Positions 5,957-35,203 of a DNA stretch of 40,585 nucleotides are shown one piece after another (the stretch's first letter is position 1; the number at the start of each line of letters is the position of its first letter). The notes beneath the pieces were generated by a model, which worked only from the letters and a program-made list of their open reading frames with translations, did no database searches and was not told where the DNA came from. Source of the stretch: Nemertoderma westbladi (lineage: Eukaryota > Animalia > Xenacoelomorpha); assembly GCA_032718475.1 (NCBI GenBank), contig JAUCBJ010007632.1, positions 1 through 40,585 on the forward strand. Reading direction: 5' to 3'. A program made the position numbers and the translations under genes.

Positions 5957-5987
<31 letters not shown>

Positions 5988-9600: not shown

Positions 9601-10565
9601 CTAGATTCCATAGACTTCCTTAGCATTTAAATAGTCCAGATTGTCCTCATTTAATGCGGATTGATTGATTATTCCCGCTCCGGTAACTTCTGATTGGATG
9701 ACATATATTGGGGATACTGTCTTACTCATGCATGCACGGTTATCTGATTGGTTGTTCATTGAGGCTTCCACTACTTGTGATTGGTTAACATAAACTCTCC
9801 CCTCCACTACTGTGTTGCTATTATCTCGCCCTCTCCCATCCACTACTGTGTTGCTATTCCCTTGCCCTCTCCTCTCCCCTGTGTTGCTATTCTCTTGCCC
9901 TCTCCCCTCCACTACTGTGTTGCTATTCTCTTGCCCTCTCCTCTCCCCTGTGTTGCTATTCTCTTGCCCTCTCCCCTCCCCTGTGTTGGTATTCTCTCGC
10001 CCTCTCCCCTCCACTACTGTGTTGGTATTCTCCACAGTGATTGTGTTCCGGCAATTTGTATCAGTAATATGTCTTTCTGTAGTTACCTTATTGTTTCTAC
10101 CAATTTTAGATTCATCGATTGTATCATAGGGATGTTTTTCATTTGTTATCTGATCATCTCGACTACTGGAGGTGAGCGGAGTAAGATTGACAGGTGACTG
10201 ATTGGTTGATGAGTGATTTACAGACCTCGCATTGGCTGTTTGATTTATAGTTATCCCATTGGATGGTGGATTTAGATAGCTCTCATTGGCTGGTTGATTT
10301 CGAAAACTCTCAGTGGCTAATGACCGATTGTTTGAAGCTCGAATGGCTTGTATCTCTAATTCTTCATAGGGGTGACTCGGGATGTTAGCTGGACCATCTA
10401 GTCCATATACAACTGTGTCATCGTAGACAGGACTACGAGGTTTCCTATTCCGATATCTTTTGAGTAAAATGAATGCCAATACGATTATAACAATCACTGC
10501 AAATCCACATCCAACAAAACCTCCAATGATTGCAGCAGAGGAATTGGAATTTGTAGGAATTTCAT
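9601..10565 (-). CDS. Receptor gene A, terminal exon: TM helix plus ~280-aa cytoplasmic tail with tyrosine motifs
   Basis: Acceptor tttttag|AT at 10566, phase 1. TM AAIIGGFVGCGFAVIVIIVLAFILL followed by KRYRNRK. Motifs YEEL, YDTI, YLNP, YVNQ, YLNA; ends EVYGI*. Confidence 0.85.
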
Positions 10566-10957
10566 CTAAAAATATAACAATAATAAAATGTTTTTGAACT
10601 TGTACTGGAGAGTGCGGGTGTGTGCGGGTGTGCATGACAGGTCAGAAAAAAATAATTAAAAAAAAAATTTCGCTCAGTAACCACGTGATTGAAGATGTGT
10701 TGTTTCTTTTAATTTCAGAGATAAATCGTAAGGTCGGTGATTATTCTTGTTCGTCAAAAACATTGGATTGGTAAATTTTCCCGCAAACTTTACAATGAAA
10801 TACCGACGATCTGCTAGTAAGTTTCACGAAATCGCCCCAAGAGCAGACAAATAGCTGAGTATTTATAAATAAATAGGGCTGCTCTTTCGTCGTTGGCAAC
10901 CCCAATTTATAGCGGGAAATTTAAATTCTCCAAACTGACAAATAGCAAACAATTGTA

Positions 10958-12477
10958 CTACTACTACTACTACTAGGATCGGCATGGCAGCTGCATTTTT
11001 AAGAATGCTGTGCCGGCTTATCGACAAAATTGCACCGCCACAACTCCCTATCACCCATGACATTTGCTAGATCATCCGCATCTTCAAGGCCAGTGTCCTT
11101 TAAGATGCGTCTCAAGAAAGTCATGGGCTGTCCACCATGCTTATTCACTCCATGAGGCTGCCAAAGTACAAGATTATGCACTGGCTGGTCCTCACGGCGA
11201 AAGCAATGTCCTGCAAAGCGGAGGCGATTTTGTTCTAGTATCAAGCTTGGGGGAACCAATGAGACACCTCTAATGTTATATAGTGTCTGGTTGGAGATGT
11301 GTGCATTGTACTTGACACAATGAACCAGGCGTAGCATTCTTGTAAATGTACCATCTAGAGATTAGGTGTCCTCAGCAGTTAGAGCCTAGCATGGACTCCC
11401 ATAGAGGAGTACTGGAACTACTGCTGCGCTAAATAATCGGACGTTAAGTTTCCGATTAATTATCGGTACTTCCAAATCCTGGAAAGCCTATTCAAGGCTG
11501 CCCTGCCCAGGCCTTTCCCTTACGTATTCGAAGGTCCTCACCTGACTTCCAGATCCATGATCCCATTTAACAGAAATCATCCACATGATCAAGCATACCA
11601 TCTTTTGAGCTTATGCTCATCCGATCAGAGACTTGCTGAGGACTTTCAAAGTTAACTGTCAAAAAATTTTGGTCTTTCTGGAGTTAATAAAAAAACCAAC
11701 ACTAGAAGCAGCATGTTTTAATGAGCTGAGGAGCCGTTGGGCTCCCTCTAGTGATTCTGAGAGTACTCCTAAGTCATCAGCAAAGTCTAGATCAGTTAGG
11801 TACTTGGCAGGATTTCTTCGACTTCTGGAGCCAGTAGGTGGAGTTATCATCACCCCATCATCATTATGATGATCTAAGGACATGCGTAGAACATAGTCAA
11901 CAACAATTATGAACAAGAATGGTACAAGTGTGTCTCCCTGGAGGACGCCCCATAACACTTCAAATGGTTCTGTGTCACCGTCAACAGTAGACACAAATGT
12001 TGTCGAACCATCGTATACTGATCTGATTGCTGCAATAATTTCATCAGGAATCCCATATAATGAAAGTATGCTGAACATACGTGAGCGAGAGACTGAATCA
12101 AAGGCCTTGAAGAAGTCAACAAAGATAACAGCCAGATGCCTGTCTTTCTTTTTTGATAACTATTCAATTATCCTTCTAAGTGCCAAAATGGGCTCCATGG
12201 CCCCACGACCTTTACGGAACCCATTCTGATTTCCACGGAGCAGTCTCTCAATGGGATCCCTAATGCGATTTAATAGAATTCTATTGTATAGCTTTGCAGC
12301 AATCGAGATCAATGAGATTCCCCGAAAAGAACCATAGAGTGTTAGGTTCCCCTTCTTGGGAACTGGCACAAACTTATTTGTTTTCATTTCTTGTGGGACT
12401 CTTGTTGTTCGGTACATGTGTACTATGATGGGATAGATGAACTTTAAACACTCAGGTATTTTAAAGAACTAACAATT
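10958..12477 (-). mobile_element. RTE-clade LINE, 5'-truncated and frameshifted, with (TAG)n tail and 11-bp TSD
   Basis: RT motifs PKKGN, FRGISL, QNGFR, GVLQGD, LDFADD in split ORFs. TSD AAACAATTGTA at 10947-10957 and 12478-12488. Confidence 0.92.
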
Positions 12478-12507
12478 AAACAATTGTAACAACTCGTTGT
12501 ATCTCAC

Positions 12508-13125
12508 CTGATGCTGGTTCACCTTCTATTATAGGAGTTGGATCCTGACAACCGAACTTATTACAGGCCACTACTGAGAAATAATGACGTTCATTGGGTA
12601 ATCCTGAGACGATTATGTAAGAATCATTTGTATTTCCTGTTGTTATAGTAACAATATTTCCGTTACTGTTTGTGTACTCAACTCTAAACCATTGAATAGA
12701 TCCCCCATTGAATCCTGGTGTCCAACTAACTATAACTCTGGAATTATCAACTGCTTCTACTTTAACTCCAGTCGGCATATGTGGAGGTCCCATAGGTTCC
12801 AACTTAACGTCACATTCACCAAAAGTACTGATACCATTTCTAACCCTCCCAAAGTAGGTTAAATTAAGATCATCACTGGTTACATCATATATCATTAGAC
12901 TTATGACAGCAATATTTTTATACCCAAAGTTCTCCACTACAACAACTGATGTTCTATATTTATCACCATCGGGCAGTTCCTTATTTAAGTCAACTTCACT
13001 AAGCCAATAGACACTCGATTCAATAACAGCTGGATAACTTTCCAATGTACATGTTAGAGTAACGACATTCCCAACATCTCCTATAACAATTCGCTCTGTG
13101 TCTTTATGAATCCAAATGGGGTTGT
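12508..13125 (-). CDS. Receptor gene A, exon 3b: Ig-like domain plus FN3 domain
   Basis: ttcttag|AC...G|GTGAG, 618 nt, phase 1-1. VTLTCTLESYP..VYW; FN3 PPHMPTGVKV..SWTPGFNGGSIQWFRVEY..GLPNERHYFSVVACNKFG. Confidence 0.85.
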
Positions 13126-13177
13126 CTAAGAAAATCGAAAAATATTTTATTTTATTTGAAACAATATTTGTTATACT

Positions 13178-13426
13178 ACAACTACTACTAGGTCGAGCGA
13201 ACTCGGACAGTGGAAATGAGATCCTTCCAGGCTTCCCGATTCTCCATAGTTGTCGCAATTTCGTTTCTCCAAAGTTCAGTATCCCTTTCAAGTTGATCTA
13301 TATATGTTATGGCCGGTCGTCCGCGACTACGCTTTCCATGAGTTGGTTGCCAGAGAAGTAGATCTGGTATGTCTTTATTTCGCCAGCAGTGCCCACTGAA
13401 TCTTAATCTGCGTTCACGGAGGGTGG
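13178..13426 (-). mobile_element. 3' fragment of a second RTE family, with (TAG)n tail
   Basis: RERRLRFSGHCWR..LLLWQPTHGKRSRGRP..YIDQL..W; tail ACTACTACTA at ~13180-13190. Confidence 0.8.
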
Positions 13427-14105
13427 TTACTACTAGGATCGGCATGCTGCATTTTTAAGAATGCTGTGCCGGCTTGCCAACAAAATTGCACCGCCACAAC
13501 TCCCTATCACCCATGACATTTGCTAGATCATCCGCATTTTCAAGGCCAGTGTCCTTTAAGATGCGTCTCAAGAAAGTCATGGGCTGTCCACCATGCTTAT
13601 TCACTCCATGAGGCTGCCAAAGTACAAGATTATGCACTGGCTGGTCCTCACGGCGAAAGCAATGTCCTGCAAAGCGGAGGCGATTTCGTTCTAATGTCAA
13701 GCTTGGGGGAACCAATGAGACACCCCCAATGTTATATAATGTCTGGTTGGAGATGTGTGCATTGTACTTGACACAATGAACCCGGCGTAGCATTCTTGTG
13801 AATGTGCCATCCAGAGATTTGGTGTCCTCAGCAGTTAGAGCCCAGCATGGACTCCCATAGAGGAGTACTGGAACTACTGCTGCTCTAAATAATCGAACTT
13901 TAAAAGTTTGTGATGTACTGTTTCCTATGAGACTGAAAATGCTATTCAATGCTGCCTATGCCGTCCCCTTACATACTCAAAAGTCCTTCACCTGATTTCC
14001 GGACCCATGATCCCAGGTAGCAGAATTTATTCACATGCTCAAATATACCATCCTTTGAGCTTATGCTTTATACGTTCAGACATTATCTGGGGACTCTCGA
14101 AGTGT
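13427..14105 (-). mobile_element. RTE-clade LINE 3' fragment (same family as 1-810)
   Basis: ORF 13455..13949 is nearly identical to ORF 152..769; (TAG)n tail at ~13428-13436. The 13900-14105 part is more decayed. Confidence 0.88.
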
Positions 14106-14246
14106 TCACACCATGGATCAGTTTTATCTTAAATCTTTAAGTAACAGACAGGCTATTCCATATGTATAAAAGTAACATGATAAAATAAAGTAATAGGAAC
14201 GCATTATTTGGGAAACCATGTTCGGCATGATCAGGTCTCTTCAATA

Positions 14247-14410: not shown

Positions 14411-14437
14411 TATAAAAGTTAACATATTATATCTCAC

Positions 14438-15067
14438 CTGATGCTGGTTCACCTTCTATTACAGGAGTTGGAACCCGACAACCGTGCTCATTACAGGCCA
14501 CCACGGTGAAATAATGACGTTCATTGGGTAAGTCTGGGACGATTATGTAAGAATCATATGTAATTCCCGATGTTTTAGTAACACTTGTACCGTTACTGTT
14601 GGTGTACTCAACCCTAAACCATTGAATAGATCCACTATTGAATCCTGGTGTCCAACTAACTCGAACTCTGGAATTATCAACCGCCTCTACTTTAACTCCA
14701 GTCGGCATATGTGGAGGTCCTTTAGGTTCTACTTTAACGTTACATTCAACCTCAGTATTACTGCTAGGGATACCATTTCCAACACTCCCAAAGTAGGTTG
14801 GATTAAGATCATCTCTCGTTACATTATATATAGTTAGCCTTAAAACAGCTGTACTTTTATACCCAAAGTTCTCCACTACAACAACTGATGTTCTATATTT
14901 ATCACCATCGGGTAGCTTTTTATTTACGGCAAATTGACTAATCCAATAGACACTCGATTCAATCACAGCTGGATAACTTTCCATTGTACATGTTAGAGTA
15001 ACGTTCGTCCCAAGAACTCCTATAACAGTTTGCTCTGTGGTGTCATTGTGAATCCAATGTGGTTTGT
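14438..15067 (-). CDS. Receptor gene A, exon 3a: Ig-like domain plus FN3 domain
   Basis: ttctttag|AC...G|GTGAG, 630 nt, phase 1-1; paralogous to exon 3b. Confidence 0.85.
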
Positions 15068-15843: not shown

Positions 15844-15929
15844 CGGTGATCTAAGCACTAGTAGTTGCCAGTGTCAGAACTGTGATCAGCATCTGGCAGT
15901 CTGGTCTACAGGTGTATGATACGGTTCCC

Positions 15930-16974: not shown

Positions 16975-17160
16975 AACTCGATAGCTGCTACCCGAGGGTA
17001 GGGGTGGGCGCTACTCCTATCCCAAGATTTGCTCCCAGTTATTTAACTGGTACTCATTTCATCGACCCCAGTGGATGAAAGGCTGAGTGGACCCTGGCGG
17101 GGCTGAACCTACAACCGATAGATTGCAGGCCCGGCGCTCAACCAACTGAGCTACCCCGCC
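16975..17160 (-). mobile_element. tRNA-derived SINE with a conserved central domain
   Basis: Minus strand GGCGGGGTAGCTCAGTTGG (A box), GGTTCAGCCC (degenerate B box), then GGGTCCACTCAGCCTTTCATCC..GGTCGATGAAATGAGTACCAG, which resembles Nin/Sauria-type SINE cores. The 3' end is approximate. Confidence 0.75.
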
Positions 17161-18380
17161 TTGGTACACAGGTGTTGCTGTATGTGAGCAGTTGTAATTG
17201 CTTCAATTTTATCCTGTATGTACTTTTCCTGGCTGATGTTGTAGGCCAATTTAAGATCGTCCTTAGCTTTCTCAACCTTGTTAATGTTTTCGGTTGTTGG
17301 TTGTTGGTTTTAACTTTGTAGGCTATCTTAAGATCTTCTCTCTTACAAGTAACCTCAGAATTTTGCCATGGCACATACTGTTTTCGTTTGGGTTTCTGGG
17401 GGATATGCCTCTTAGCTGATTCCTTGTGGGCTGTTATTATATTCTGGTATATTGAATCGGTGGATTGGTCTTCATCAATTGTCTGAAGTGTTTCAAAGCG
17501 GTTTTGAACTTCTACTGTATAAGCATCCTTTACAGCATTGTCAGTTCTGAGTTTCTCCGAGTCATAGTTGATTTGCTTGCTATTCCTGGGTTTGCTGGCT
17601 CTCAAACTGAGTATGATCCCTGCAGTCACAATTCTGTGGTCCGAACCAATTACGATGAACGAGCTGTATGCCTCGCAGTTGATCATGCTATTTCTCCACT
17701 TTTTGTTTATAAGGATGTAATCCAGTTGTGCTTTGGTTCCATTAGGGTATTGAAAGGTCCATAGCTTCCCCTTACTCTTTTCGAATGTTTTATTTGTTGG
17801 TATCAATTCACATTCTTCCATTAGGTCTAAAAGTAAGTACCCATTTCTATAAGAACTTGGGTTATAGGTGTAACCCTTGATGTCTTCAGGGCCAATTTGC
17901 GCATTCAGGTCACCAGCAATGACTTTAACATTGTGTCTCGGTATGTCCTTTATAAGTCCAGTCAGTTCTTCATAAAACTTGACTGCTTGTTCTGGCTCTG
18001 AGGCATTGGTTGGACTGTAGCAACATATAACTGTTGCCTTGGGATTCCCATCAAATGTTGCGATCATATCCCTGGAATTTATAGATTCGATGTTGTTTAG
18101 GGTCTTAAGTGCAAATGGGCTTAGTAGAATTCCTCCTCCACCAATTGATGCATTGGCCGAGTTTCTTACTGCTGAGCTTGTTACTAACGTCCATCCATTT
18201 CCAATGTCATTGTACTTCATGGCAGTGTCTTCATGACAAATCCGATGTTCTTGGATGCAGATGATGTCGATGTTATATTCCATTGCCAGAGCGACCATGT
18301 CACCCTGTTTGGTATGTACTTTCAGCGTGCGTGCGTTCATTGTAGCAATCTTTAGTGTCTTTCTACATTTCAACAGGTTT
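17161..18380 (-). mobile_element. RTE-like LINE 5' part: AP endonuclease domain, truncated before RT
   Basis: IATMNARTL, IICIQEHR, YSPT, GDLNAQIG, WTF, QLDYILI, SDHRIV. Confidence 0.9.
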
Positions 18381-18460
18381 TTTCAACAGGTATTTAATTA
18401 TGTAGAAGGACTTAAAGGTTGTTAAGTACTTCGTGCCTCTCACAGGATGCGTAGCTCCAG

Positions 18461-18801
18461 TTCTACTAACTGTAGTGGAGGGTAATATTTACATTAGTTT
18501 ATTGTTGCTTACACTGAACTATTAACTCAATAGTGAATGACTCCTGTTCTACTAACAGCGATGGAGGGTAATATTTACAATAGTTTATTGTTACTTACAT
18601 CGAACTATTAACTCAATAGTGAATGACTCCTGCTCTACTAACAGTGATGGAGGGTAATATTTACAGTAGTTTATTGTTACTTACACTGAACTATTAACTC
18701 AATAGTGAATGACTCCTGTTCTACTAACAGTGATGGAGGGTAATATTTACAGTAGTTTATTGTTACTTACACTGAACTATTAACTCAATAGTGAATGACT
18801 C
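18461..18801 (-). repeat. 86-bp tandem repeat (4 copies) containing the exon-2 3' end and splice donor of gene A
   Basis: GGTAATATTTAC at 18481, 18567, 18653 and 18739; the unit includes ...ATAGTTCAGT|GTAAGT. Confidence 0.92.
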
Positions 18802-19350
18802 TGTAATAGTTGATAAATCATAAAACGTATATTCGGCTTTAGTTGTGTAAATCCCTGAAGATCTTTTATTTATATCGATATTCCTAACTTCATCTCCACC
18901 GGTTACGAAGTTGCCACTCCAAATATAACCAACATGTATATTGCATCCATCCCCATCTGGAATCCACTTTACCTCTATTGTGTCGTTATGAACTTCTAAA
19001 CTTCTATTTAATTGTATTGAATCACCTCCATCATAAGAAGTACCAGAAACTTTCAGTTTCAGATCACAATATTCTACAGTTACCGGTACCACTGGACTTT
19101 CTTTTCTCCCTTCCCCACTGTCGTTGCTGTACTGACCAGTAAACTCGCACTTATAATCACCTCCATCGTCGGCGCCTAAAGGGTCTAGTGTAAATGTTGA
19201 TGAAGATGGTTCAGTAACTATAGCCGCATCACCAGTAACATCTTTAGTACCAACATACCAGGACCAACTTGGTTTTGGTTCCACATTGTAGTCGTCTGCC
19301 GAACATTTTAATTCCAATGTTTCGCCTTTTTTCTTTTTAATCGCATCGCT
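18771..19350 (-). pseudogene. Receptor gene A, exon 2 (Ig plus divergent Ig-like) lacking its 5' end and normal acceptor
   Basis: Open frame SDAIKKKKGETLELKC..WSW..GDYKC..IELIVQ with donor T|GTAAGT at 18770. Homology to gene B exon 2 stops at 19350, so YLPTRININP and the ttccag acceptor are missing. Confidence 0.7.
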
Positions 19351-19696: not shown

Positions 19697-20555
19697 ATTG
19701 AACTACGATCGTAGTGGTACAGGATTTATCCTCTTCTATAGCTATATTCCTCGCCTTACATATAAACTCTGCCCCATTATCTCCACGACTTAGATCTCTA
19801 TTTATACTCAGTGTATCTCCTGGTTCAGTTACGACTCCACCAATAGCAACTCCGTTACTATACCAACTCCATCTAGAATCTCCTGATGTACTTCCAGCTA
19901 CCGGTACCGGTACCCAATCCGATAACTTACAGTTTAATGTAGCTGAACTGCCATCTATATAAGTACAACTCGGTAAGCAGCTACACTCTGGATTAGTATC
20001 AGCTTTACATTGGGCTATTATTAGTGGATAAGCCGTCTGATCCGGGAAGTCCGTCGTGTTGTTTTGGAGTTCTACTACTCTTGGATTTGATCCAGCATTT
20101 CCAGCATTAATCCAATATTGTATGTGTATCCTCAATTCCTTCAGTATAGATTCAATGACAGGAGGATTCAACCCAACAGTTATATATCCTTCAGCTCCGA
20201 CTGTGTTGCTACTTATATATTCTGTTGTACTCCATCCACCACAAGGGATATCGTTACCGTTGTTTCTACAAACATCTCCTTTGGAGTTCGCTTCATTTAC
20301 CACACTTATGCTGTTACCATTATCACCCGTAGCAATAACATATAATTCCAGTACATCGGAAACAGTTTCCGTTATAAATTCGCTAACCTCTTCAATAACA
20401 AAATCAACTTTTACTCTAATACTGTCTCTGTCTTCTTTAACGAAACATTCTCTAGTAAACGGAGGTCCACCTTGTTCGACTAGTCTATATCCATTATACT
20501 TTAACCCCAGAATAACATCAGTTAGACTTAGTAATATTATTATATATAATTTCAT
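19697..20555 (-). CDS. Receptor gene A, exon 1: signal peptide, variable N-terminal domain and Ig domain
   Basis: Signal-like MKLYIIILLSLTDVILG; Ig ATLNC..WSWY..DNGAEFICKARN; donor T|GTAAGT at 19696; 859 nt. Confidence 0.85.
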
Positions 20556-21797: not shown

Positions 21798-22127
21798 TTA
21801 ATATAATTTAGTACTCCAGCCATCACAATTGATTTTAATATTATTATTGTAGCATTCATCTCCATCGGCGTGGACTCTATTCGACACTTCTACGTTGTTA
21901 CCTTTACCATCCTTAGCAATAACCGTTGATTCCAATACATCGGGAATATTTAATTCCCTTTGTTTATTAATAATAAAATCAACTTGTACTCGAATACTAT
22001 TTCTTTCTTCTTTAAATAAACATTCTCTAGTAAATTTAGATCCATCTGGTTCGACTAGTTTATATCCATTATACTTGAAACCCAAAATAACATCAGTTAG
22101 TATCAGTAATATCAGTAATGATTTCAT
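21798..22127 (-). pseudogene. Orphan truncated copy of receptor exon 1 (signal peptide plus first part of the variable domain)
   Basis: MKSLLILLILTDVILGFKYNGYKLVEPDGSKFTRECLFKEERNSIRV...CDGWST, then an abrupt stop in AT-rich DNA. Confidence 0.8.
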
Positions 22128-23211: not shown

Positions 23212-23326
23212 AGAAAATCCCTAATATTCTACGACTTCGACGATTTGAAATAAATAATGAGAGAGGAAATATGTTACAAAATAATAATTTTCAAATTAAA
23301 AAGATAACAAATATAATAAAAAATAA

Positions 23327-24326
23327 GGATAGTACTATTTACTGACAGTTGTTACCCGTTATTAACAGTTATCCAATTCTTGCACAGGCTATCCAACAGT
23401 TATCCAATTTTTGCAGAGGCTATCCAACGCAACAGTTATCCAATTTTTGCACAGGCTATCCAACAGTTATGCAATTTTTGCAGAGGCTATCCAACAATTA
23501 TCGAAAATGTATTTAAAAAGGCAAAGGTCTCACGGCTCTCTGGGATTTCAATTTTACATTTATTAAGAGTAGGTCTCCTTGAAATAATTTCATAGTTGTA
23601 CCAGTACCATATACTATGGCTAAACTGAGATCAAGATAGCATCCTTTGTTATAGTATTGTCTTTATGGGCTGACCGATTTTTAATTAATTAGGCCTAATT
23701 AATCCTCATCAATTAAGAAATTAATCCCGCCTTCCAGTAGTTAGTGGCGTTGTTCTTTCGAAGCTCTACAGTTCACTGAGCGACTGGACAGGACCTTCTC
23801 TCTTGGCTCATCGAGTCATCCCCAATAATACACCTTATTGTCATGGCGAGTAACAACCATCTCCATTGTTGTACCAAATTCACAACAGTGACTGGGATGA
23901 GGTAGGCCTATGGAGAAGGGACGACGGACATCGGTATGTCAGGAAACATTGAGGATGGGGACGAACAAGCGACTTTCATCACTCAATACTTTCGATATAC
24001 GCCAATGTTCTTCGTTACACAGGCAACAATGTTAGGAAGCGCCAACAGGCACGCATTTGATTCTACGTCGTCAGAAGGAAATCCGAAGACAAGACGGAAA
24101 CAATTCCAGGGTTCGGTTCCGATATAATCGGTCAGCCCATAAATACCATACTGGTACTATAACAAAGGCTGCATATCCTGATATCCTGATGATCCTGAAA
24201 ACGTGGTACCGGTACAAAACTTTTTTTCGCCATTTTAAATTCATATTCGATAATAGTTGGATAGCCTGTACAAAAATTGGATAACTGTTAATAACCGGTA
24301 ACAACTGTCAGTAAATATTACTATCC
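23327..24326. mobile_element. Non-autonomous DNA transposon with long TIRs (Mutator-like)
   Basis: Left GGATAGTACTATTTACTGACAGTTGTTACC..., right ...GGTAACAACTGTCAGTAAATATTACTATCC. TIR ~100 bp; the left TIR has an internal 31-bp tandem expansion. Only a degenerate 9-bp TSD. Confidence 0.75.
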
Positions 24327-24511
24327 CAAATATAACACCAATGGAATACTAAATATAGACGAAACTGCAAAATTTCATCAATATTTTTGGACCCGAAATA
24401 ATTTTTCAGCTATACTTAGTATAAACAATTTATTCAACCATATAAATATATTTTAGAATACTAAATAGAAAAAGTCGGACAAGTTGTATAGTTATCTCAT
24501 TCGATCCATTA

Positions 24512-25463
24512 CTAGATTCCATAGACTTCCTTAGCATTTAAATAGTCCAGATTGTCCTCATTCAATGCGGATTGGTTGATTATTCCAGCTCCGGTAACCT
24601 CTGATTGGTTGACATATATTGGGGATACTGACTTACTCATGCATGCACGGCTATCTGATTGGTTGTTCATCGAGGCTTCCGCTACTTGTGATTGGTTAAC
24701 ATAAACTCTTCCCACCATTGTGTTGCTATTCTCTTGACCTCTCCCCTCCACTACTGTGTTGCTATTCTCTCGCCCTCTCCCGTCCACTACTGTGTTGGTA
24801 TTCTCTCGCCCTCTCCCCTCCACTACTGTGTTGGTATTCTCTCGCCCTCTCCCCACCACTGTGTTGCTATTCTCTTCTCCTCTCTCCTCCACTGTGTTGC
24901 TATTCTCTAGCCCTCTCCCCTCCCCTGTGTTGGTATTCTCCACAGTGATTGTGTTCTGGCAATTTGTATCAGTTTCTGTAGTTACCTTGTTTCTTCCAAC
25001 TTTAGATTCATCGATAGTATCATAGGGATGCTCTTCATTTGTTATCTGATCATCTCGACTACTGGAGGTGAGCGGAGTAAGATTGACAGGTGCCTGATTA
25101 GTTGTTGGGTGATTTACAGACCTCTCATTGGCTGTTTTATTTATAGTTATCCCATTGGATGGTGGATTTAGATAGCTCTCATTGGCTGGGTGATTACGAG
25201 AACTCTCAGTGGCTAATGACCGATTGTTTGAAGCTCGAATGGCTGGTATCTCTAATTCTTCATAGGGGTGACTCGGGATGTTAGCTGGACCATCCAGTCC
25301 ATATACAACTGTGTCATCGTAGACAGGACTACGAGGTTTCCTATTCCGATATCTTTTGAGTAAAATGATTGCCAATACGACTATAACAATCACTCCAAAT
25401 CCACCTCCAACCCCCCACCTATCAGCGGTATAGTAGGATCATAATTGGCTACAATTTGTTGAC
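24512..25463 (-). CDS. Receptor gene B, terminal exon (TM plus tyrosine-motif tail) with a 1-nt frameshift in a G-run before the TM
   Basis: Acceptor cttccag|GT at 25464. The frame from the acceptor hits TGA at 25392-25390; adding one G to the G6 run (25411-25416) restores IGGGVGGGFGVIVIVVLAIILLKRYRNRK...EVYGI*. Confidence 0.75.
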
Positions 25464-25605
25464 CTGGAAGATTGAATAAGAAATTTTATATATTTATATC
25501 AAACAGACGTCCGCAACCGACAAACTGAAGTAACAATCGCAGTTATTTTGTTTATATTTCTAGGTTCGTTTAATTATATTTATTTTATTATTAAATTTAA
25601 TTGCA

Positions 25606-25860
25606 GCTGTGGAAATGTAATATAACATCGACATCATATGTATCCAAGAACTTCGGATTAGTCATGAAGACAGTGCCATAAAGTACAATGATATTGGAAA
25701 TGGTTGGACATTAGTAACAACCTCAGGAGTAAGAAATTCGGCCAATGTTTCAATTGGTAGAGTAGGAATTCTGCTAAGCCCATTTGCACTTTAGACACTA
25801 AACAACATCGAATCTATAATTTCCAGGGTCATGATTGCAACATTAGATTGGAATTCCAAG
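25606..25860 (+). mobile_element. Decayed RTE AP-endonuclease fragment (same family as 17161-18380)
   Basis: YNIDIICIQE..KYNDIGNGWTLVT; reverse-complement similarity to ~18035-18285. Confidence 0.8.
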
Positions 25861-26307
25861 ACACTGCATGTTGTAATTTTGTTTTGAACCACTGAGTTGG
25901 GTTAAAGTACCGGTACGCCTAGAGAGAGACCTACAGAAAGATGAAATACTTTGTTTCCATTTGGTAATAAGTTTTCAGTCGATCTTTTGACGAGAAGCAA
26001 ATTGAGCCAAATTAAAAAAAAAAGTTATTCTAATTTTATATGCTATACAATATATAGTTAATATTATAGTAATATATATAAATAGATATAATAAATATAA
26101 TAAAATATATGTATAGTTAAAAGTACAGAAATAGCATTTTAGATCCCCCCTATATTATAGTATCCCAACCAAATACGTTATAATATAGACTTCTAATACT
26201 GGCGTTCAATTCACACCATATATATATCTATCTATAATGGTTGGAAAACAATTTGAGCCACCACCATGCAGCAATCTACAATAATTAAATTGCTATAAAG
26301 CAGCGTG

Positions 26308-26625
26308 CTTTAAGAATGCTATGGCGGTTTATCAACACAACCGCGCCGCTCAAAATAGTCGAACCTCTAGAATTCCAATGAATTCTATTTGACTTCAAAA
26401 TCCTGGCGATCCCATTCAACGCTGCCTATGCCTCCCCTACGGATTAGAAAGCACCTGACTTCCGGATCCATGAGACTTCCGGATCCATGAGACTTCCGGA
26501 TCCATGAGACTTCCGGATCCATGATCCCAGGTAGCAGAAGTTATTCACATGCTTAAGTATACCATCCTTTGAGCTTATGCTTTATGTTCAGACATTATCT
26601 GGGGACTGTCGAAGTGTTCACACCA
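26308..26625 (-). mobile_element. Decayed RTE fragment with an internal 17-bp tandem repeat (4 copies)
   Basis: Similar to 13940-14125; GACTTCCGGATCCATGA x4 at ~26457-26524. Confidence 0.7.
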
Positions 26626-26758
26626 TGGATCAGTTTTGTTACAGTTCAACATTAATCTCTCTCAAATGACACGGTTTCAGTAACAGACCAGACAGGTTAT
26701 TCTATATTTATAAGAGTAACATGATAAAATAAAGTAATACTAACGTATTTTAAGCAAC

Positions 26759-29700
26759 GGTAGTATATAGTATAGCTTCTCAGATGCATTCAATTGCATT
26801 CAATTAAATTCATATACTAATTTATTGGATTGCCTGTATATTTCGCCCACGGACGCCAGTGGCCAACCTGTTTCTGTGGTGTATTGTTTGGGATGTCACA
26901 AGGGTCTCAACGCTGCTGCCAGTGTGGCACCACCCCTGATGGTAGTTGCATAACGGGGCGGTGTGGTTGCCACAAACGTCGGCGTCCTTGTATCAGTTGC
27001 GCACAGTTTCTCACCGGAGGATGCAGGAACGAGTTCACTTCCAACATTCACACATTGTCGCCGCTGTCGCAACCACCCATTCCGATAAACTTTTCCTCCC
27101 CGCACGAGATGTTGGACACCATGGAACGGACTGGTTCAAACTGCCAGCTTTCGTTCGACTCACTAAGCGAAACGTTGGTACCTCAGTCAGGAAACGGAGA
27201 CGACGGCGCCAGCCAGTCTACCATCAACCAAGACGGCCACATTCCGCCCACAGACCCTGTCCCCGACTGTCCTCGTCGCTCAGTGAAACCCACAGACGCC
27301 CCAACTGCCGGGGCAGCCGCCCAGGACACCACGACCTTTGGCAGTATGTGGGCATCAGTGACCGAGAACCAAACGAACCCCGACCCACAGGACTTAATGA
27401 CTAGGGCCTACGGGGCCCCATTGGTTGGAAAGGGAGCCGCCCCGGATCTCTTACTACACCAGTGGAGGCGCGCTACTCAGTTGATCGGGTCCAAATACCG
27501 TCTGCCTGGTGGTGCATTGGGGCGGGACTTTGTTGAGCTGCTGGCCTCAGAGGCAACAGCCTTCCAGTCGGCGTTGCAACACAATGTGGCAAATGCCCGC
27601 TCAGAGCGTTTACTACTCACGGACTCGCTTCTACTCCATCGCGACCCTAAAGTAACAAAGGTGGCCGACATCCGCCGTCTCCTCTCCCGAAGAATCGGTC
27701 TTTGGCGAGGCGGCCAAATGGAGGCCCTCCTCCAGGAGGCGGAGCGATGCTCTAAGAAGTTTGGTTCTGGCCATCGGGTCATTCGTCAGCCGCCGGACAA
27801 CGAGAAGGAACACACGATCCGTGTGTTTACCCGCCTTATGCTTGAGGGAAAAGTGCGAAGCGCTGTACGGTGGGTGACGGGCCGGGATTCTGGAGGCGTA
27901 CTAGACCCCAGCGATGACGTGGAGGTTGGGGGAAACAAGGTCAATGTCCTGGACGTGCTCAGAAGTAAACACCCCTCAGCGGCGGCACCTCCGGTTGGTT
28001 CTCTACTGGATCTTGAAGATGAGCTACCGGTGCGAGTTGACGTCGACATAACGGCCGCCCATATAGAGTCGGCTGTCCGCCACCTCCACGGCGGGGCGGG
28101 ACCTGCCGGTTCTGATTCCACCCGCTGGCAGGATTTTCTGCTAAGTTACGGGGCCCACAGCGAACGCCTACGCGAGGGAATTGCAGGCATCACTCGCAGT
28201 CTGGCGAACTCAGTAGTCCCATGGGAGTCCACACGTGCCCTCATGTCTGGCCGGCTCATCGCCCTTGATAAGTGCCCTGGAGTGCGCCCAATTGGGATTG
28301 GCGAATGGCACGAGCCATGGCGCAGACTACTGGCGACGACGTGACAACAACTTGCGGGGCTGAGCAGCTATCAGCCGGGACGTCCGCGGGAGTCGAGGCC
28401 GCCGTCCACACGATGGCCGACATCTTCGAGGAGCGGGCCGACGATGGTTGGGGGGTACTCCTGGTAGACGCCTCCAACGCATTCAACTCACTGAATAGGG
28501 TGGCAGCGCTGTGGAACGCCCGCCGTTTATGGCCAAGGTGTTCCTTGTTCTTATTCAACTGTTACCGAGGATACAGTATATTGGTTGTGAGAGGAACAGA
28601 TGCGATATTATTCAGCGAGGAGGGAGCCATACAGGGGGACCTGCTCGCCATGCTGTTCTACGCAACAGGGGCCCTACCACTAGTCCGATGCCTGCGTTCC
28701 TCGAAGACGCGACAGAACTGGTTTGCGGACGACTCGGCTGGTGCTGGGAGACTCGTGGACGTCCTGGAGTGGTTCCTTCAGCTCAAAGCCAACGGCCCAG
28801 CACTTGGTTACAAGCCAGAACCATCCAAGAGCTACCTGGTAGTGGCGCCGGCTTTTATGGAGGAGGCCAAGCGGATCTTCACGGGCCACTCCATCAATGT
28901 GGTTACTGGCCACCGCTTCCTCGGGGGTTTCCTGGGTGGAGTGTCTGACAGGACGGCGTTCGTGGGGGCCAAGGTAGCTGCATGGGTCGACGCAGTAGAC
29001 AAGCTGTCCGAGATGGCAGCCGAACAGCCGCAGGCTGCGTTTGCGGCCATGGCCTGCTCCCTCCAGAGGGAGTGGGCCTACCTTCAGCGGGTCACACCAA
29101 ACTGCAGCGACCAATTCCGAATCCTCGAGGAGGCCATAGCCCAGCGTTTTCTGCCAGCCCTACTCGGAGGCGAAATATCCGCTAACGAACGCCGGCTGTT
29201 CTCCTTGTCCCCCCGCATAGGAGGGATGGGCCTACGGGACCCTATAGTGGAAGCTACTCCTTCCTACGACACATCCCGGGCCGGAACTCGGTCCCTCAGT
29301 CAGGCAATCATCGGGGTTGAACCCTTCTCCCTGGTAGATCACCTCGCTTGTCTTCAGGGGGCTCGCAAAGTGGGGCGAACACTACAGCTTGCACGGGAGG
29401 ACACCGGGTTCAAGGAGGCGATCAAAGACATGTCACAGACCCGACGACGCACAGTACAACGAGCTGTTGACTACCGTACCAGCGGCTGGATTTCCTGTCT
29501 CCCCCATGCAGAGCATCACCTCGACCTTTCTCCTCGTCAGCCGAAGACGAGAAGAAGCGGCTCTACTCCGACGCAGTCTGGGCGCGGCGTGGAGACTTCT
29601 CGCCATACGTTGCCTCCTGCGACGGAGTGTTGGCCCCCCAAGCGGACAAGCTCCTCAGGACCATTGCCCAGAAGCTCCACCGGACGTGGGGGAGACCCTA

Positions 29701-29984
29701 CAGCATGGTGATGGGGTGGGTCCGTACCCGGGTCCAGCTGGCTATCGTACGCGGGGCTTCCCATTGCCTTAGAGGGTCGCGGACGAAATGGCGTAGCGGG
29801 CTCGGGCTGGACGACGGCGCTGGGATACCAGGTGGCTTTGTGTCACAGGTGGTGTTGGTGCTAGTATTTTGCTAATTGATTAACAAACGTTTTGCTAAAA
29901 CATTTTGCTGTGTGGTATTGTATGTAATAAATCCATCGTGCATTTATTAGTTTACAGAAATTATTAATAATAAAATCTGATTAA
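26759..29984 (+). mobile_element. CRE-clade non-LTR retrotransposon (RT plus restriction-like endonuclease remnant), GC-rich, frameshifted and internally deleted, 13-bp TSD
   Basis: RLIALDKCPGVRPIGIGE, LVDASNAFN, QGDLLAM, FADD, HRFLGGFLG, GGMGL; C-terminal EDEKKRLY..FSPYVASCDG..CLRGSR. TSD TATTTTAAGCAAC at 26746-26758 and 29985-29997; the homologous gene A intron (~14200-14220) is empty. Confidence 0.88.
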
Positions 29985-30163
29985 TATTTTAAGCAACCAT
30001 GTTCAGCATGATCCGGTCTCTTGAATATAATCTTAAGTTGAACGAAATACATTTTTGACAGACCAATCAATATCAAGCAAATTAAATAATGTATGTTTTT
30101 TTTTATTATTACGCAAAAAAAATATACTTTGTTCAACCCAAGATTGTATAAAAGTTAACATAC

Positions 30164-30787
30164 CTGTTGTTGGTTCACCTTCTATTACAGGAGTTGGATC
30201 CTGACAACCGATCTTATTACAGGCCACCACAGAGAAATAATGACGTTCATTGGGTAATCCTGGGACGATTATGTAAGAATCAGTTGTATCTATTGTTGTT
30301 TTAGAATCAAAGTTTCCGTTACTGTTGTTGTACTCAACTCTAAACCATTGATTAGATCCACCATTGAATCCTGGTGTCCAACTAACTTTTACACTAGAAG
30401 AGTCAACAGCTTCTACTTTAACTCCAGTCGGCATATGTGGAGGTCCTTCAGCATCTAAGTTAACGTCACATTCAACCTCAGTATTACTGCGAGGGATACC
30501 ATTTCCAACACTCCCAAAGTAGGTTTGATTAAGATCTTCTCTCGTTACATTATATATCATTAGACTTATAAAAGCTATACTTTTATAATCAGAGTTAAAA
30601 ACTTCAGCTGATGTTCTATATTTATCACCATCGGGTAGCTTTTTATTTACGTCAGCTTGACTAACCCAATAAACACTCGATTCACTAACAGCTGGATAAC
30701 TTTCCAATGTACATGTTAGAGTAACGACATTCCCAACAGCTGCTATAACAGTTCGCTCTGTGTCATTGTGAATCCAATGTGGTTTGT
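30164..30787 (-). CDS. Receptor gene B, exon 3: Ig-like plus FN3
   Basis: ttttttag|AC...G|GTATGT, 624 nt, phase 1-1; paralog of exons 3a and 3b. Confidence 0.85.
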
Positions 30788-31420
30788 CTAAAAAAAAATA
30801 TGTTTGTATTGTAATTATATTTATTATGTGGGAGATGTGAATTCAATGCAACCAAACAATGACACCAAGGTGGAACCTTGGTGTCAGAGTCGGGAAGTTA
30901 TCAATAGTCCAAACACGACTGAATAAGGAAATGGTAAATTATAACATTGCGAGCTTCGAGCTTGATATTTTATCTAGACACGCAGCAAAATCTTAAAGTA
31001 GCCAGATTCTGGAATATACAATGTAAATAGGACAATATGATAATGCTCTCCATATTTACATTGTATATTTGATTCACCGCGTCACTCGCCCCACAACAAT
31101 TCTCTTATTATTATAGATTCTGGAACAGTTACTGTGTTATTGGTCGTATTGATGTACGTTATATCATTAATATGATTCATAATTAATGACCTGAAGTTTG
31201 TATTGTTTGTTTTGTTTGTATTGAATCCTTATACATGCCTGGTCTGGGTTGTGCAGTTCAGTTCACCGTCTCAAAGTTGCACAAAACATTAAGTTTTAAC
31301 AAAACGAGACGGGGGTTGGGTAACTTACGCCAATCCCATCAATGAAAATTGAAAATTAAATAAAAAAATGAAAATTGTAAATATATTGTGTGGAAGCGTT
31401 GACATGGAATTATACATATA

Positions 31421-31828
31421 GGGTAATATTTACAGTAGTTTATTCTTACTTACACTGAACTATTAACTCAATAGTGAATGACTCCTGTTCTACTAACAGT
31501 GATGGAGGGTAATATTTACATTAGTTTATTGTTACTTACACTGAACTATTAACTCAATAGTTAATAACTCCTGTTCTACCAACAGCGATGGAGGGTAATA
31601 TTTACAATAGTTTATTGTTACTTACATCGAACTATTAACTCAATAGTGAATGACTCCTGTTCTACTAACAGTGATGGAGGGTAATATTTACAGTAGTTTA
31701 TTGTTACTTACACTGAACTATTATCTCAATAGTGAATGACTCCTGTTCTACTAACAGTGATGGAGGGTAATATTTACAGTAGTTTATTGTTACTTACACT
31801 GAACTATTAACTCAATATTGAATGACTC
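31421..31828 (-). repeat. 86-bp tandem repeat (~5 copies) containing the exon-2 3' end and donor of gene B
   Basis: GGTAATATTTAC at 31422, 31508, 31594, 31680 and 31766. Confidence 0.92.
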
Positions 31829-32406
31829 CGTAATAACTAATACCCGATAATCATAAAACCTATATTCGGCTGTAGTTGTGTAAATCCCAGAAGATCTTCT
31901 ATTAACTTCGATATTCCTAACTTCATCTCCACCGGTTACGAAGTTGCCACTCCAAATATAACCAACATTTATATTGCAGTCATATGGAATCCACTTTACT
32001 TCTATTGGGTCATTATGGTCTGTCATATTTCTTTTAATTTCTATAGAAGTGTTTATAGTATAAGAAGTACCAGAAACTTTCAGTTTCATCTCACAATATT
32101 CTACAGTTACCGGTACCGCTGGACTTTCCATTTTCCCTTCCCCACCGTTGTTGCTGTAACGACCAGTATACTCGCACTTATAATCACCTCCATCGTCGGC
32201 GCCTAAAGGGTCTAGTGTAAATGTTGATAAATATGGTTCAGTAACTATAGCTGCATCACCAGTAACATCTTTAGTACCAACATACCAGGACCAACTTGGG
32301 TTTGGTTCCATATTGTAATCGTCTGCCGAACATATTAATTCCAATGTTTCGCCTTTTTTCTTTGTAATCGCATCGCTGGGGTTAATGTTTATCCTAGTCG
32401 GCAAAT
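31798..32406 (-). CDS. Receptor gene B, exon 2: Ig plus divergent Ig-like domain
   Basis: gttccag|AT...T|GTAAGT, 609 nt, phase 1-1; TLELIC..WSWY..DDGGDYKC. Confidence 0.85.
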
Positions 32407-33244
32407 CTGGAACAATAAAATTAATAATTGTAATCGATTTTGCACGCCTCTGTAGGCAACATATCAAAAATATACGTCCCTCAAGAATTTAATTTTAAGA
32501 ATATGCAATATGGATCTGGAGGATCTGTATATCACATCATATATTCTGTGTACCACAGAATATGCTATACGGTTCGTCCCAGGCTCGCCAGGACCGACTG
32601 TATAGTTTTGAGGGCAAAGTAACAGCTAACCATTTGCGACAATTTGTCCCACCCCTGTTTGGACTCAGATGGTAACTTGGTGTTCTGCACTATCGCCAAG
32701 TTTCCAATAGTGTGAAGATGCACCAAGTTTATTACGATAATTTTCAACAAAATAAACTATATTCTACCCTTTTTTGAGATTTGTATTATATTTTTTCAGT
32801 GTATTTTTAGCATAACGAAACGACTAAAAATACTTTCTACCATTTTGGGTTACAATTTTGGATTGTATTATTTTTCGATGCTATACTTTGGATCCTAACG
32901 GACCCCTAACATTTTCGCCATCTTTGCCAATCCCCCCCCCCCCCCCCCCCCCCAACAAAAAAAAATCAATAATATTTTAATAATTTTATAATTTGTGCAT
33001 ATATAGTGCGGTGTGGCGTAGGGGCCACCAAGAATACTAACTTACTCAAAACATTTATATATCTTAGTGCAATTTCTATCACTTTATTTCTTATGTACGG
33101 GTTATTTTATTGTTAGCTTTAGGCCTAGTGTTAATTGTGATAATTATTGAACAGTGTCGTACTTAAGTTTCGGTCAAGGAGTAGGATAAACCATCAAGGT
33201 TAAAATGTATAAACATTCAAAATGACGTTGAAAAACGCAAAGGT

Positions 33245-33466
33245 GTGGTACACACACATGGTACACACACATGGTACACACACATGGTACACACACATGG
33301 TACACACACACATGGTATACACACATGGTACACACACATGGTACACACACACATGGTACACACACACATGGTACACACACATGGTACACACACATGGTAC
33401 ACACACATGGTACACACACACATGGTACACACACATGGTACACACACACATGGTACACACACATGA
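33245..33466. repeat. CA-rich minisatellite (GGTACACACACAT, 13/15-bp units)
   Basis: Directly visible; source of several spurious ORFs. Confidence 0.95.
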
Positions 33467-34033
33467 AAGTAGATATATGAAGGAGGGGTTATGGTATAAT
33501 GAAGGCATTATAATTGGAAAGGAAATTGTGAATGTTAATATAGTTTATTGATTACATAAGTTAATGTACATAACAAGGAAGAAAATGCGAGCCTAGTGAG
33601 CGGAAATTTTTAAAACAATGTTGAGGTTTTGCACATTTGAAGCGACCTTTTTATCCAATAATATTTGGATAAAACTAATGACTTTACTTTACATGTCGGT
33701 ATATAACATTCGCTACACATCTCTCTGCAGTAATACACTAATATTATAATTGTTCGCTAAGATGGCTTGCAACTTTTGCTACATGAAGGCCCTACTAGTT
33801 CTAGCCGTAAAGTCTCTACTTCTCGTTTTATACTTATTTTTACATTTCACTACCCTTTTTTTCACCAATTGGCACTTCACTCTTCGTCATTTTCCGTCTT
33901 GGTTTCCTCAGAATGCCTCCTGCTGTTGCAGAAACCCCAGTCTACAGTCTGATGCTCACTGACACTGATCGTGTGTAACTAAATATATTGTAATATACAG
34001 TAATGTAACCTTTAGTGGATATCACAAACTTAC

Positions 34034-34886
34034 ATTCAACTATGATCGTAGTGGTACAGGATTTATCCACTTCTATAGCTCTATTCCTCGCCTTACATGT
34101 AAACACTTCCCCATTATCTCCACGACTTAGATCTCTATTTATACTCAGTGTATCTCCTGGTTCAGTTACGACTCCACCAATAGCAACTCCGTTACTATAC
34201 CAACTCCATCTAGAATCTCCTGATGTACTTCCAGCTACCGGTACCGGTACCCAATCCGATAACTTACAGTTTAATGTAGCTGAACTGCCTTCTATATAAG
34301 TACAACTCGGTAAGCAACTACACTCTGGATCATTATCAGCTTTACATTGGGGTGGGAGAGTTATTATAAGTGGGTAAGCTGACTGATTGGATATGGCCGG
34401 GTTTTCTTGGAGATTTACCGCATTATCTGATTTACGATCAACGTAATATTGTATTCGTATCTCCAATTCCTTCGGTATATTTTCAATACCAGGAGGATTC
34501 AACCCAACAGTTATATTTCCTGTAGATCCAACTGTTTTGCCACTTATATACTCTGTTGTACTCCATCCATTACAACCGATATCAGCTTTATTAATAATAT
34601 CCCTACAATCATCTCTATTGGCGTTGACGTCATTCCGCACACGTACTATGTTGTTACCTTTACCATCCTTAGCAATAACCGATGATTCCAATACATCGGT
34701 AATAGTTAATTCACTTTGTTGATTAATAATAAAATCAACTTTTACCCTAATACTATTTCTTTCTTCTTTCCGTAAACATTCTCTAGTAAATTTAGATCCA
34801 TTTGGTTCGACTAGTTTATATCCATTGAATTTGAAGCCCAGAATTACATCAGTTAGAGTTAGTAATGTAATTATAAATAATTTCAT
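34034..34886 (-). CDS. Receptor gene B, exon 1: signal peptide, variable N-terminal domain and Ig domain
   Basis: MKLFIITLLTLTDVILG (an upstream in-frame ATG at 34913 is also possible); donor T|GTAAGT at 34033; 853 nt. Confidence 0.85.
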
Positions 34887-35203
34887 TATAAATATAAATT
34901 CTTGATGCGCCATGTTACAATAATATAAACTGTAATGGGAATTGAGCGCCTACAGTACTTACGGTATAATATTTTCGTAAAATTCGTAACAATAACTAGT
35001 CGCGCGCCTCACTTAATTCAAATGATGTAAATAATAAGTAGTTGTCGCTCTCTATTAGCGGAGTCCTATATGTAATTTATTACATTAATATACAAGTCAC
35101 ACGCCTATACTTATAGTACTTCAAATCTGGTTAATAAAGCCGCTATTGATTAGCACGTGTGGTTTAGATGGTGGCTTTTCCATTTTGTAGAATATTGCCA
35201 TAA

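What the first reader, a model, noticed from the sequence alone, without database searches (positions are those of the whole stretch)
9601..34913. Tandem cluster of diversifying Ig/FN3 single-pass receptors: candidate undescribed immune or allorecognition locus
Seen: two head-to-tail paralogs plus a third partial copy, with the layout SP - unusual N-domain - Ig-like domains - Ig+FN3 - TM - tyrosine-rich tail. All exon junctions are phase 1. A is ~1023 aa if exon 2 is skipped; B is ~1012 aa if its frameshift is corrected. Known: clustered, variable Ig+FN3+TM+tyrosine-motif genes with pseudogenes characterise Hydractinia Alr genes and vertebrate paired-receptor clusters, and the FN3 motif WTPGFNGG.Q.F recalls nephrin/sidestep-type IgSF. 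Inference: a lineage-specific self/non-self or pathogen-recognition family. I do not recognise a named ortholog.
Basis: partly seen in the sequence, partly recalled or inferred. Interest (0 to 1): 0.85.

Follow-up and report, generated by a model that had tools for sequence, protein, structure and literature searches.

The report
Fast-turnover Ig/FN3 receptor gene array
This animal DNA holds two near-complete and one truncated copy of a cell-surface receptor gene (immunoglobulin and fibronectin domains, a membrane anchor, a tyrosine-rich tail) whose outermost domain differs most between copies and has no detected relative; every copy here is damaged as assembled, but public reads show spliced relatives, so it is likely a young, recombining family of recognition receptors, probably derived from a nephrin-like adhesion gene, whose immune or self-recognition role is untested.

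Summary
Each copy has a lesion as assembled. The family is nonetheless real: 16 of 17 coding indels keep the frame (3 of 16 non-coding are multiples of three), one public run holds two predicted splice junctions, and summed read depth suggests roughly ten or more copies. The outer domain differs at 65 of 157 residues between A and B, the next Ig at 10 of 104; copies are recombined mosaics. The outer domain has no hit in 1.84 billion proteins; a low-confidence model weakly resembles V-set Ig. The best named relative is a hemichordate nephrin-like protein (E 2e-6). Against the immune reading: no ITAM or ITIM, no positive selection once controlled (omega about 0.8), no allelic, tissue or binding data. 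It is not an Alr gene. Best reading: a birth-and-death family of variable recognition receptors signalling through Grb2/Nck-type adaptors (0.45). The scan had no look-alike sequence; one analogous kinase-dead Ig array was noted in another genome.

The parts
34034..34886 (-). Gene B exon 1: signal peptide, orphan outer domain (about aa 18-180), Ig domain (aa 181-284); alternative in-frame ATG at 34913
   Evidence: Pfam Ig_2 E 2.5e-6; outer domain no hits
31798..32406 (-). Gene B exon 2: Ig domain plus a second, atypical domain with no Pfam Ig hit (Ig-like by inference)
31420..31829 (-). 86-bp tandem repeat (4.8 copies) of the exon-2 end and splice donor of B
30164..30787 (-). Gene B exon 3: Ig + FN3
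   Evidence: Pfam fn3 E 3.3e-9, V-set E 0.0011; both ends seen as joints in run X3
26746..29997 (+). GC-rich 3.2-kb retroelement-like insertion in B intron 3, 13-bp target-site duplication, absent from other copies or alleles
   Evidence: joint 26746-29986 in X1, X2, X4
24512..25463 (-). Gene B exon 4: stalk, TM, 281-aa tyrosine-rich tail; one base short at the G run 25416-25411 as assembled
   Evidence: acceptor seen in X3 joint
21801..22127 (-). Fragment C: signal peptide and first half of the outer domain, truncated
   Evidence: joint 34580-21835 in X2, X3, X4 shows C-type starts that continue into B-like sequence
19697..20555 (-). Gene A exon 1: signal peptide, outer domain, Ig domain
18771..19350 (-). 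Gene A exon-2 remnant: still open, but acceptor and first nine codons lost
   Evidence: Pfam Ig_3 E 1.3e-8
18455..18801 (-). 86-bp splice-donor tandem repeat of A (4 copies)
14438..15067 (-). Gene A exon 3: Ig + FN3 (first copy)
12508..13125 (-). Gene A exon 4: Ig + FN3 (second copy)
9601..10565 (-). Gene A exon 5: stalk, TM, 286-aa tail with ten tyrosines and a 33-36-bp coding repeat
5986..7828 (+). Left copy of a direct repeat (unique flank plus 39-bp satellite) that brackets the cluster
   Evidence: 91% to 37559-39391
37559..40585 (+). Right copy of the bracketing repeat and satellite, running off the window

Best explanation
The window holds three copies of a type I membrane receptor gene from a multicopy family that turns over by tandem duplication, recombination and loss, and the family likely works as a set of variable recognition receptors: a divergent outer domain, predicted weakly to be V-set-like, would bind non-self or cell-surface ligands at the tip of an Ig/FN3 stalk, and clustering would lead to tail tyrosine phosphorylation and recruitment of Grb2/Nck-type adaptors and a PDZ scaffold rather than Syk or SHP. 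Shown: architecture, paralogy, lesions, frame preservation, mosaic divergence, splice joints in one run. Supported but indirect: about ten or more copies; nephrin-type origin of the Ig-FN3 junction. Inferred only: fold of the outer domain, ligand, phosphorylation, adaptors, immune or symbiont-sensing role.
For: Outer domain 110 of 471 nt and 65 of 157 aa different between A and B, against 11 of 312 nt and 10 of 104 aa in the next Ig and 23 of 208 nt in the adjacent intron. A 181-bp identical tract amid 129 differences in 835 columns was reached in 0 of 20000 shuffles, and differences among the three Ig+FN3 exons cluster (48 runs in 106 sites, 0 of 20000): conversion or unequal crossing-over. 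16 of 17 distinct coding indels are multiples of three against 3 of 16 non-coding; no stop codon in the compared exon bodies although 2.7 to 4.4 are expected per exon under a simple neutral model. Run X3 alone of four holds joints at the predicted exon 3-4 and exon 2-3 boundaries with CT..AC ends and is depleted of high-copy repeats (exon/repeat depth 0.28-7.8 against 0.007-0.043). Summed depth on four exon bins is 9-19, 5-11 and 13-37 times the bin upstream of B in X1, X2, X4. All ten tail tyrosines are kept in both genes; 4 and 5 YxN, one YDTI, C-terminal YGI (binding rules for Grb2, Nck and PDZ recalled). Young copies, pseudogenes, an outer variable domain and intergenic recombination are the pattern of Alr (PMC9546547) and fester/FcoR (PMC12582321).
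Against: No ITAM, ITIM, ITSM or hemITAM in either tail. Ectodomain omega 0.80, not different from 1 (p 0.13); an apparent positive-selection class (M2a vs M1a, p 2e-5) vanishes when a fast neutral class is allowed (p 0.66) or multi-hit codons are dropped; dS is as high as dN in the outer domain (0.34 vs 0.30), so it is older or less homogenised, not shown to be selected. All three copies in view are damaged as assembled. The only named relative is an adhesion protein, and nephrin/kirre genes are neural in two acoelomorphs (PMC6687202). The outer-domain model has pLDDT 47 and best Z 7.6, within the range of a common arrangement. The two joints have short sides (22 and 23 letters) and X3's library type is not on record; summed contig depth is not a copy number.
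Confidence: 0.45

Rival explanations
1. A Sidestep/nephrin-like adhesion code: the family labels neurons, muscles or epithelia and guides contacts through heterophilic binding of the first domain.
For: B's layout (five Ig-like domains if the outer domain and the second exon-2 domain are Ig, one FN3, TM, unfolded tail, PDZ-type end) equals that described for Sides (PMC10084454 section 3.1.5). Best named hit is nephrin-like, 33% over 121 aa across the Ig-FN3 junction. Nephrin/kirre genes are expressed in neural domains of two acoelomorphs.
Against: Copies are young (dS 0.01-0.34), mosaic and often broken, with omega near 0.8; wiring receptors are usually old and strongly constrained (recalled). 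Only three of the five Ig-like domains have Pfam support. No Side protein was hit.
Confidence: 0.25
2. Redundant amplification: one adhesion gene was multiplied by segmental duplication; copies stay open because dosage or a few sites matter, but their differences carry no distinct specificities and edge copies are decaying.
For: Omega indistinguishable from 1 in five of six ectodomain parts; no positive selection after controls; non-coding DNA between B and C is also multicopy (X1 contig at 22544-23091, depth 217 against 13.5-14.2 for two other pieces); the cluster is bracketed by a direct repeat with satellite; all three copies have lesions.
Against: 16 of 17 coding indels in frame and no stops in the exon bodies show long selection on reading frames of diverged copies; the outer domain is more diverged than its neighbouring intron while the next Ig is homogenised.
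Confidence: 0.2
3. A true allorecognition or gamete/self-sterility locus: allelic outer domains bind only their own kind, as Alr1 and Alr2 do.
For: Same broad design as Alr (V-like outer domain, Ig, FN3-like, TM, tyrosine tail, pseudogenes; PMC9546547). Public runs from three samples differ from the window at many exon positions (14 of the 22 coding places among 40 shown change the residue).
Against: Those differences cannot be split into alleles and paralogs. No ITAM/ITIM; two domains per exon, whereas Alr has one without exception; 72-76% paralog identity against 24% in Alr. If the lineage lead (a solitary nemertodermatid worm) is right, no fusion/rejection trait is known to me (recalled).
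Confidence: 0.1

Closest known systems
Hydractinia Alr family (PMC9546547; parts 1-3 of 7 of the text read)
   Same: Clustered single-pass IgSF genes with an unusual outer domain, Ig domains, an FN3-type fold, tyrosine-bearing tails, pseudogenes and possible secreted forms; no orthologs outside the lineage.
   Different: Alr: one domain per exon, one to three Ig, ITAM or ITIM in many tails, 24% mean identity, tails too diverse to align. Here: two domains per exon, up to five Ig-like, no ITAM/ITIM, 72-86% identity, conserved tails; no sequence link found.
Nephrin / SYG-2 / Sns and Sidestep (PMC10084454 passages and section 3.1.5; Ptychodera nephrin-like P0121)
   Same: Ig domains followed by FN3, TM, unfolded tail with a PDZ-type end; detectable similarity over the last Ig and FN3; five-Ig-plus-FN3 count of Sides matches B if two unassigned domains are Ig.
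   Different: Nephrin has an invariant nine Ig and three YDxV motifs (PMC11247170, search listing); here at most five Ig-like, one YDTI, several YxN. Multicopy, young and broken copies; an orphan outer domain; A has two Ig+FN3 units.
Botryllus fester and FcoR families (PMC12582321; abstract and outline)
   Same: IgSF families with an N-terminal Ig-like domain, intergenic recombination, copy-number variation and tyrosine motifs.
   Different: FcoR carry ITIM or hemITAM and Sushi domains and sit in pairs with fester genes; none of this is seen here.
Biomphalaria GRC and PTC2 clusters (PMC7494358; passages)
   Same: Clusters of divergent single-pass proteins without homologs outside the lineage, with structural haplotype differences.
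   Different: PTC2 proteins have no known domains and a mapped resistance phenotype; here Ig/FN3 domains are clear and no phenotype exists.

Membership tests
Immunoglobulin superfamily with FN3, type I membrane | Ig and FN3 domains, signal peptide, one TM | tested here: met
   Pfam above cut-off for Ig and fn3; hydropathy
Hydractinia Alr | Each domain on a single exon | tested here: not met
   Each extracellular exon carries two domains; Alr rule
Hydractinia Alr | ITAM or ITIM in many tails | tested here: not met
   0 matches in 2 of 2 tails; other family members' tails not seen
Hydractinia Alr | V-set fold of the outer domain | tested here: inconclusive
   Model pLDDT 46.7; the listed chains are mostly V-set, best Z 7.6, rmsd 3.2 over 109 residues; none at Z 8 or more of 48161
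Hydractinia Alr | Sequence homology to Alr proteins | tested here: inconclusive
   No Alr among hits; Alr proteins were not compared directly
Hydractinia Alr | High allelic polymorphism, allele-specific homophilic binding, control of fusion/rejection | not testable with these tools
   Contigs mix alleles and paralogs
Nephrin (ortholog) | Nine Ig domains plus one FN3, invariant | tested here: not met
   At most five Ig-like before FN3 in B; A has two Ig+FN3; definition
Nephrin (ortholog) | Three YDxV motifs | tested here: not met
   No YDxV; one YDTI
Nephrin-related IgSF | Similarity across the last Ig and FN3 | tested here: met
   P0121 E 2.1e-6, 33% over 121 aa; one named hit only, no tree
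Sidestep | Five Ig, one FN3, unfolded tail, PDZ-binding end | tested here: inconclusive
   Count fits B only if two domains without Pfam hits are Ig; PDZ-type end by recalled pattern
Sidestep | Orthology to arthropod Sides and binding to Beats | not tested
   No Side hit; no tree built
Paired activating/inhibitory receptor cluster | ITIM-bearing and ITAM- or adaptor-coupled members side by side | tested here: not met
   Both tails are of one type, 86% identical, no ITIM; no charged residue in A's TM

The most novel reading that the evidence does not exclude
A nephrin-type adhesion gene was recruited, independently of Alr, fester and vertebrate paired receptors, into a large recombining array of non-self receptors with a new V-like ligand domain that signal through a LAT-like Grb2 tail instead of ITAM/ITIM; if the lineage lead is right, it would be the first variable recognition-receptor family in xenacoelomorph worms, which have lost much of the Toll and complement machinery (PMC12849515, passages).
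Probability: 0.25. Interest if true: 0.8.

Novelty: new variant of a known kind. Interest (0 to 1): 0.48.

Why it matters
Lineage-specific clusters of variable IgSF receptors have arisen repeatedly, and their origins are unexplained because the known ones have no traceable ancestor. This family is young enough to align and keeps a detectable link to nephrin-type adhesion proteins, so it could show how an adhesion gene becomes a variable receptor array. It gives concrete, testable reagents (three outer-domain types, one tail type). If it is only a relaxed amplification, it is ordinary birth-and-death evolution.

Tried and rejected
No whole genome is held, so family size could not be counted directly. 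One search listed no RNA holder on record; this is no evidence either way. Outer domain: no hit in the word-based search of longer proteins (weak evidence), 0 hits at E 0.001 among 1,835,955,588 representatives, atlas best score 0.79 with unnamed clusters, no PDB sequence hit better than E 0.55, no profile match to the other exons, Foldseek no match at E 0.001, whole-exon model pLDDT 39.5. The homodimer prediction for B exon 1 gave no verdict (score 0.11, mark 0.32). Metagenome contigs: 135 pattern matches, none confirmed. Islet LIM1 could not fix the lineage (best 78%, 120 of 218 hits listed). Positive selection: accepted at first from M2a, rejected after controls. A's exon 2 used through a cryptic in-frame acceptor (1208 or 1198 aa): unlikely, pyrimidine share 0.2 and 0.45 against 0.65-0.75 for the six real acceptors. 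A long 3' UTR of B across 22300-24300: not adopted, an AATAAA-type signal lies at 24434. Low X3 depth at 24324-24777 is not taken as a finding. Literature: no description of this family found in searches; the library lacks most subscription papers and I opened no supplements, which may list such families.
Full report
Names. A is the downstream gene (20555-9601; D in my scripts), B the upstream gene (34886-24512; U), C the fragment (22127-21801). All are on the minus strand.

Observation. Exon ends were set on canonical AG/GT sites. B has four exons, all junctions phase 1: signal peptide + outer domain + Ig; Ig + an atypical domain; Ig + FN3; TM + tail. As assembled it stops at aa 719, just before the TM, because a G run (25416-25411) is one base short of A's frame; read through it has 1012 aa. 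A gives 1023 aa when its exon-2 remnant is skipped, and has two Ig+FN3 exons. The remnant is still open over 579 nt but has lost about 1.4 kb of intron, its acceptor and nine codons; the two nearest AGs with moderate pyrimidine tracts give stops at aa 288 and 299, and the in-frame AGs are poor acceptors. C ends after 109 codons. Pfam confirms Ig and FN3 domains.

Is it a living family? Three lines say yes. (1) Frames: 16 of 17 distinct indels in four exon alignments are multiples of three, the exception being B's G run, against 3 of 16 in four non-coding comparisons. No stops occur in the exon bodies, where a uniform neutral model expects 2.7-4.4 per exon (chance of none 0.012-0.06 each; two of the four comparisons share a sequence). 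All ten tail tyrosines of B are kept behind the frameshift, so the break is recent or an assembly error; I could not tell which. (2) Splicing: of four public runs laid on 21600-35200 at 85% likeness (three samples, library type not on record), X3 alone shows a joint 25461-30162 (CT..AC, the predicted exon 3-4 intron; depth 155, two contigs) and a joint from the exon-3 acceptor to an exon-2 end (depth 214, one contig). The 23 letters on the short side match A's exon-2 end and repeat copies, not B's own exon end, so expressed relatives include exon 2. X3 is also depleted of high-copy repeats relative to exons, as RNA would be. Caveats: sides of 22 and 23 letters; 15 of 89 joints, 12 of 153 indels and 40 of 756 substitution places were shown; the joints show family members, not these loci. 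Gene A itself was not checked against reads. (3) Copy number: summed depth on four exon bins is 9-19 (X1), 5-11 (X2) and 13-37 (X4) times that of the bin upstream of B; one X1 contig between B and C has depth 217 against 13.5 and 14.2 for two others. The tool warns that summed depth is no copy number, and X2 and X4, one sample, disagree; I read it only as 'about ten or more'. Joints also show C-type starts running on into B-like sequence (X2, X3, X4) and copies without the 3.2-kb insertion (X1, X2, X4). A direct repeat with a 39-bp satellite brackets the cluster, and an Islet LIM-homeobox gene begins 8 kb further on, so this may be the end of an array (inference).

Pattern of divergence. Between A and B the outer domain differs at 110 of 471 nt and 65 of 157 aa, the next Ig at 11 of 312 nt and 10 of 104 aa, the adjacent intron at 23 of 208 nt. 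A 181-bp identical tract and clustered differences among the three Ig+FN3 exons were each matched in 0 of 20000 shuffles: the copies are mosaics. But dS rises with dN in the outer domain (0.34, 0.30). Maximum-likelihood omega is 0.87 there, 0.48 in FN3 (p 0.03 against 1), 0.80 over the ectodomain (p 0.13). M2a beat M1a (p 2e-5), yet a fast neutral class fits better, omega above 1 adds nothing to it (p 0.66), and the signal is gone without multi-hit codons. With two or three sequences power is low. So: open frames are selected, residues change almost freely, positive selection is not shown.

Relatives and fold. The outer domain has no detectable relative. Its AlphaFold2 model is poor (pLDDT 46.7); against 48161 chains the listed matches are mostly V-set domains (B7-H6, nanobodies, CD47, CD96, JAML, TCR), best Z 7.6, rmsd 3.2, 109 residues, none at 8 or more. 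That is a lead, not a fold assignment, and the PDB is rich in V-set chains. Atlas neighbours are generic Ig/FN3 adhesion clusters; PDB hits are titin, contactins and similar. No tree was built; one hit cannot fix ancestry.

Tail. No ITAM, ITIM, ITSM or hemITAM in either tail; 4 (A) and 5 (B) YxN, one YLNP, one YDTI, C-terminal YGI, and a low-complexity coding repeat. That YxN binds Grb2, YDx-type motifs Nck and the C-terminus PDZ domains is recalled; LAT using Grb2 and nephrin using Nck through multiple tyrosines in disordered tails is stated in PMC9333988 (passages). The tails are Asn-rich (14%), so some YxN are expected by chance; this was not tested.

Lineage. My calls do not fix it (Islet LIM1 best 78%). 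An earlier, unreviewed note on the same assembly (e1-10585389) reports a match to a Nemertoderma transcript; I treat this as a lead. For that group, papers report nephrin present (PMC10565955, passages), neural nephrin/kirre expression in two acoelomorphs (PMC6687202, passages) and reduced Toll and complement pathways (PMC12849515, passages).

Comparison. It works like other clustered variable receptor families in design and turnover: Alr (PMC9546547, parts 1-3 of 7), fester/FcoR (PMC12582321, abstract and outline), snail PTC2 (PMC7494358, passages). It is not an Alr (two domains per exon, no ITAM/ITIM, high paralog identity) and not a nephrin ortholog (domain count, motifs). B's layout would equal Sidestep's (PMC10084454, section 3.1.5), which that review says is unreported outside arthropods; orthology was not tested. 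I found no description of this family in searches; supplements were not opened.

Verdict. The family and its birth-and-death, mosaic evolution are well supported (about 0.85). Its role is open: variable non-self recognition 0.45, adhesion code 0.25, redundant amplification 0.2, strict allorecognition or gamete recognition 0.1. New variant of a known kind; interest 0.48.

Noticed in passing
window 1373-1000 (-): First two exons of an Islet LIM-homeobox gene (LIM E 1e-15; 78% to a bivalve ISL-1); the receptor cluster lies 8 kb upstream of it.
   Followed up: partly
window 809-1014; 18455-18801; 31420-31829: Splice-donor minisatellites: the exon end and donor are repeated 9 times (23 bp) after Islet exon 2 and 4-5 times (86 bp) after exon 2 of both receptor genes; the same oddity was noted elsewhere in this genome.
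   Followed up: partly
window 6611-7828 and 38174-40585 (+): 39-bp satellite (31 and 62 copies) with one open frame rich in N-glycosylation sequons (438, 500 and 298 aa stretches); five of six frames have stops. Probably non-coding; it brackets the cluster.
   Followed up: no
window 3050-5700 (-): Open Ty3/gypsy-type pol frame with RT, RNase H and integrase; gag and protease not seen in the window.
   Followed up: no
window 26746-29997 (+): GC-rich (58%) retroelement-like insertion with broken frames and a 13-bp target-site duplication; no Pfam hit in two frames; the label CRE-like is recalled. Polymorphic among copies or alleles.
   Followed up: partly
window 1-810, 10965-12468, 13188-14205, 17138-18382, 25606-26750: Several copies of one high-copy LINE (endonuclease E 6e-9; RTE-like by recall) inserted in three introns of gene A and one of B.
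   Followed up: no
window 23327-24326: About 1-kb element with 82-bp terminal inverted repeats between B and C, likely a non-autonomous DNA transposon.
   Followed up: no
window 9795-10032 and 24712-24940: 33-36-bp coding tandem repeat in both cytoplasmic tails, the most variable part of the tail (72% identity); a weaker 27-bp repeat lies nearer the membrane.
   Followed up: partly
window 8089-9100: 315-bp tandem repeat, 3.2 copies at 98%, just downstream of gene A.
   Followed up: no
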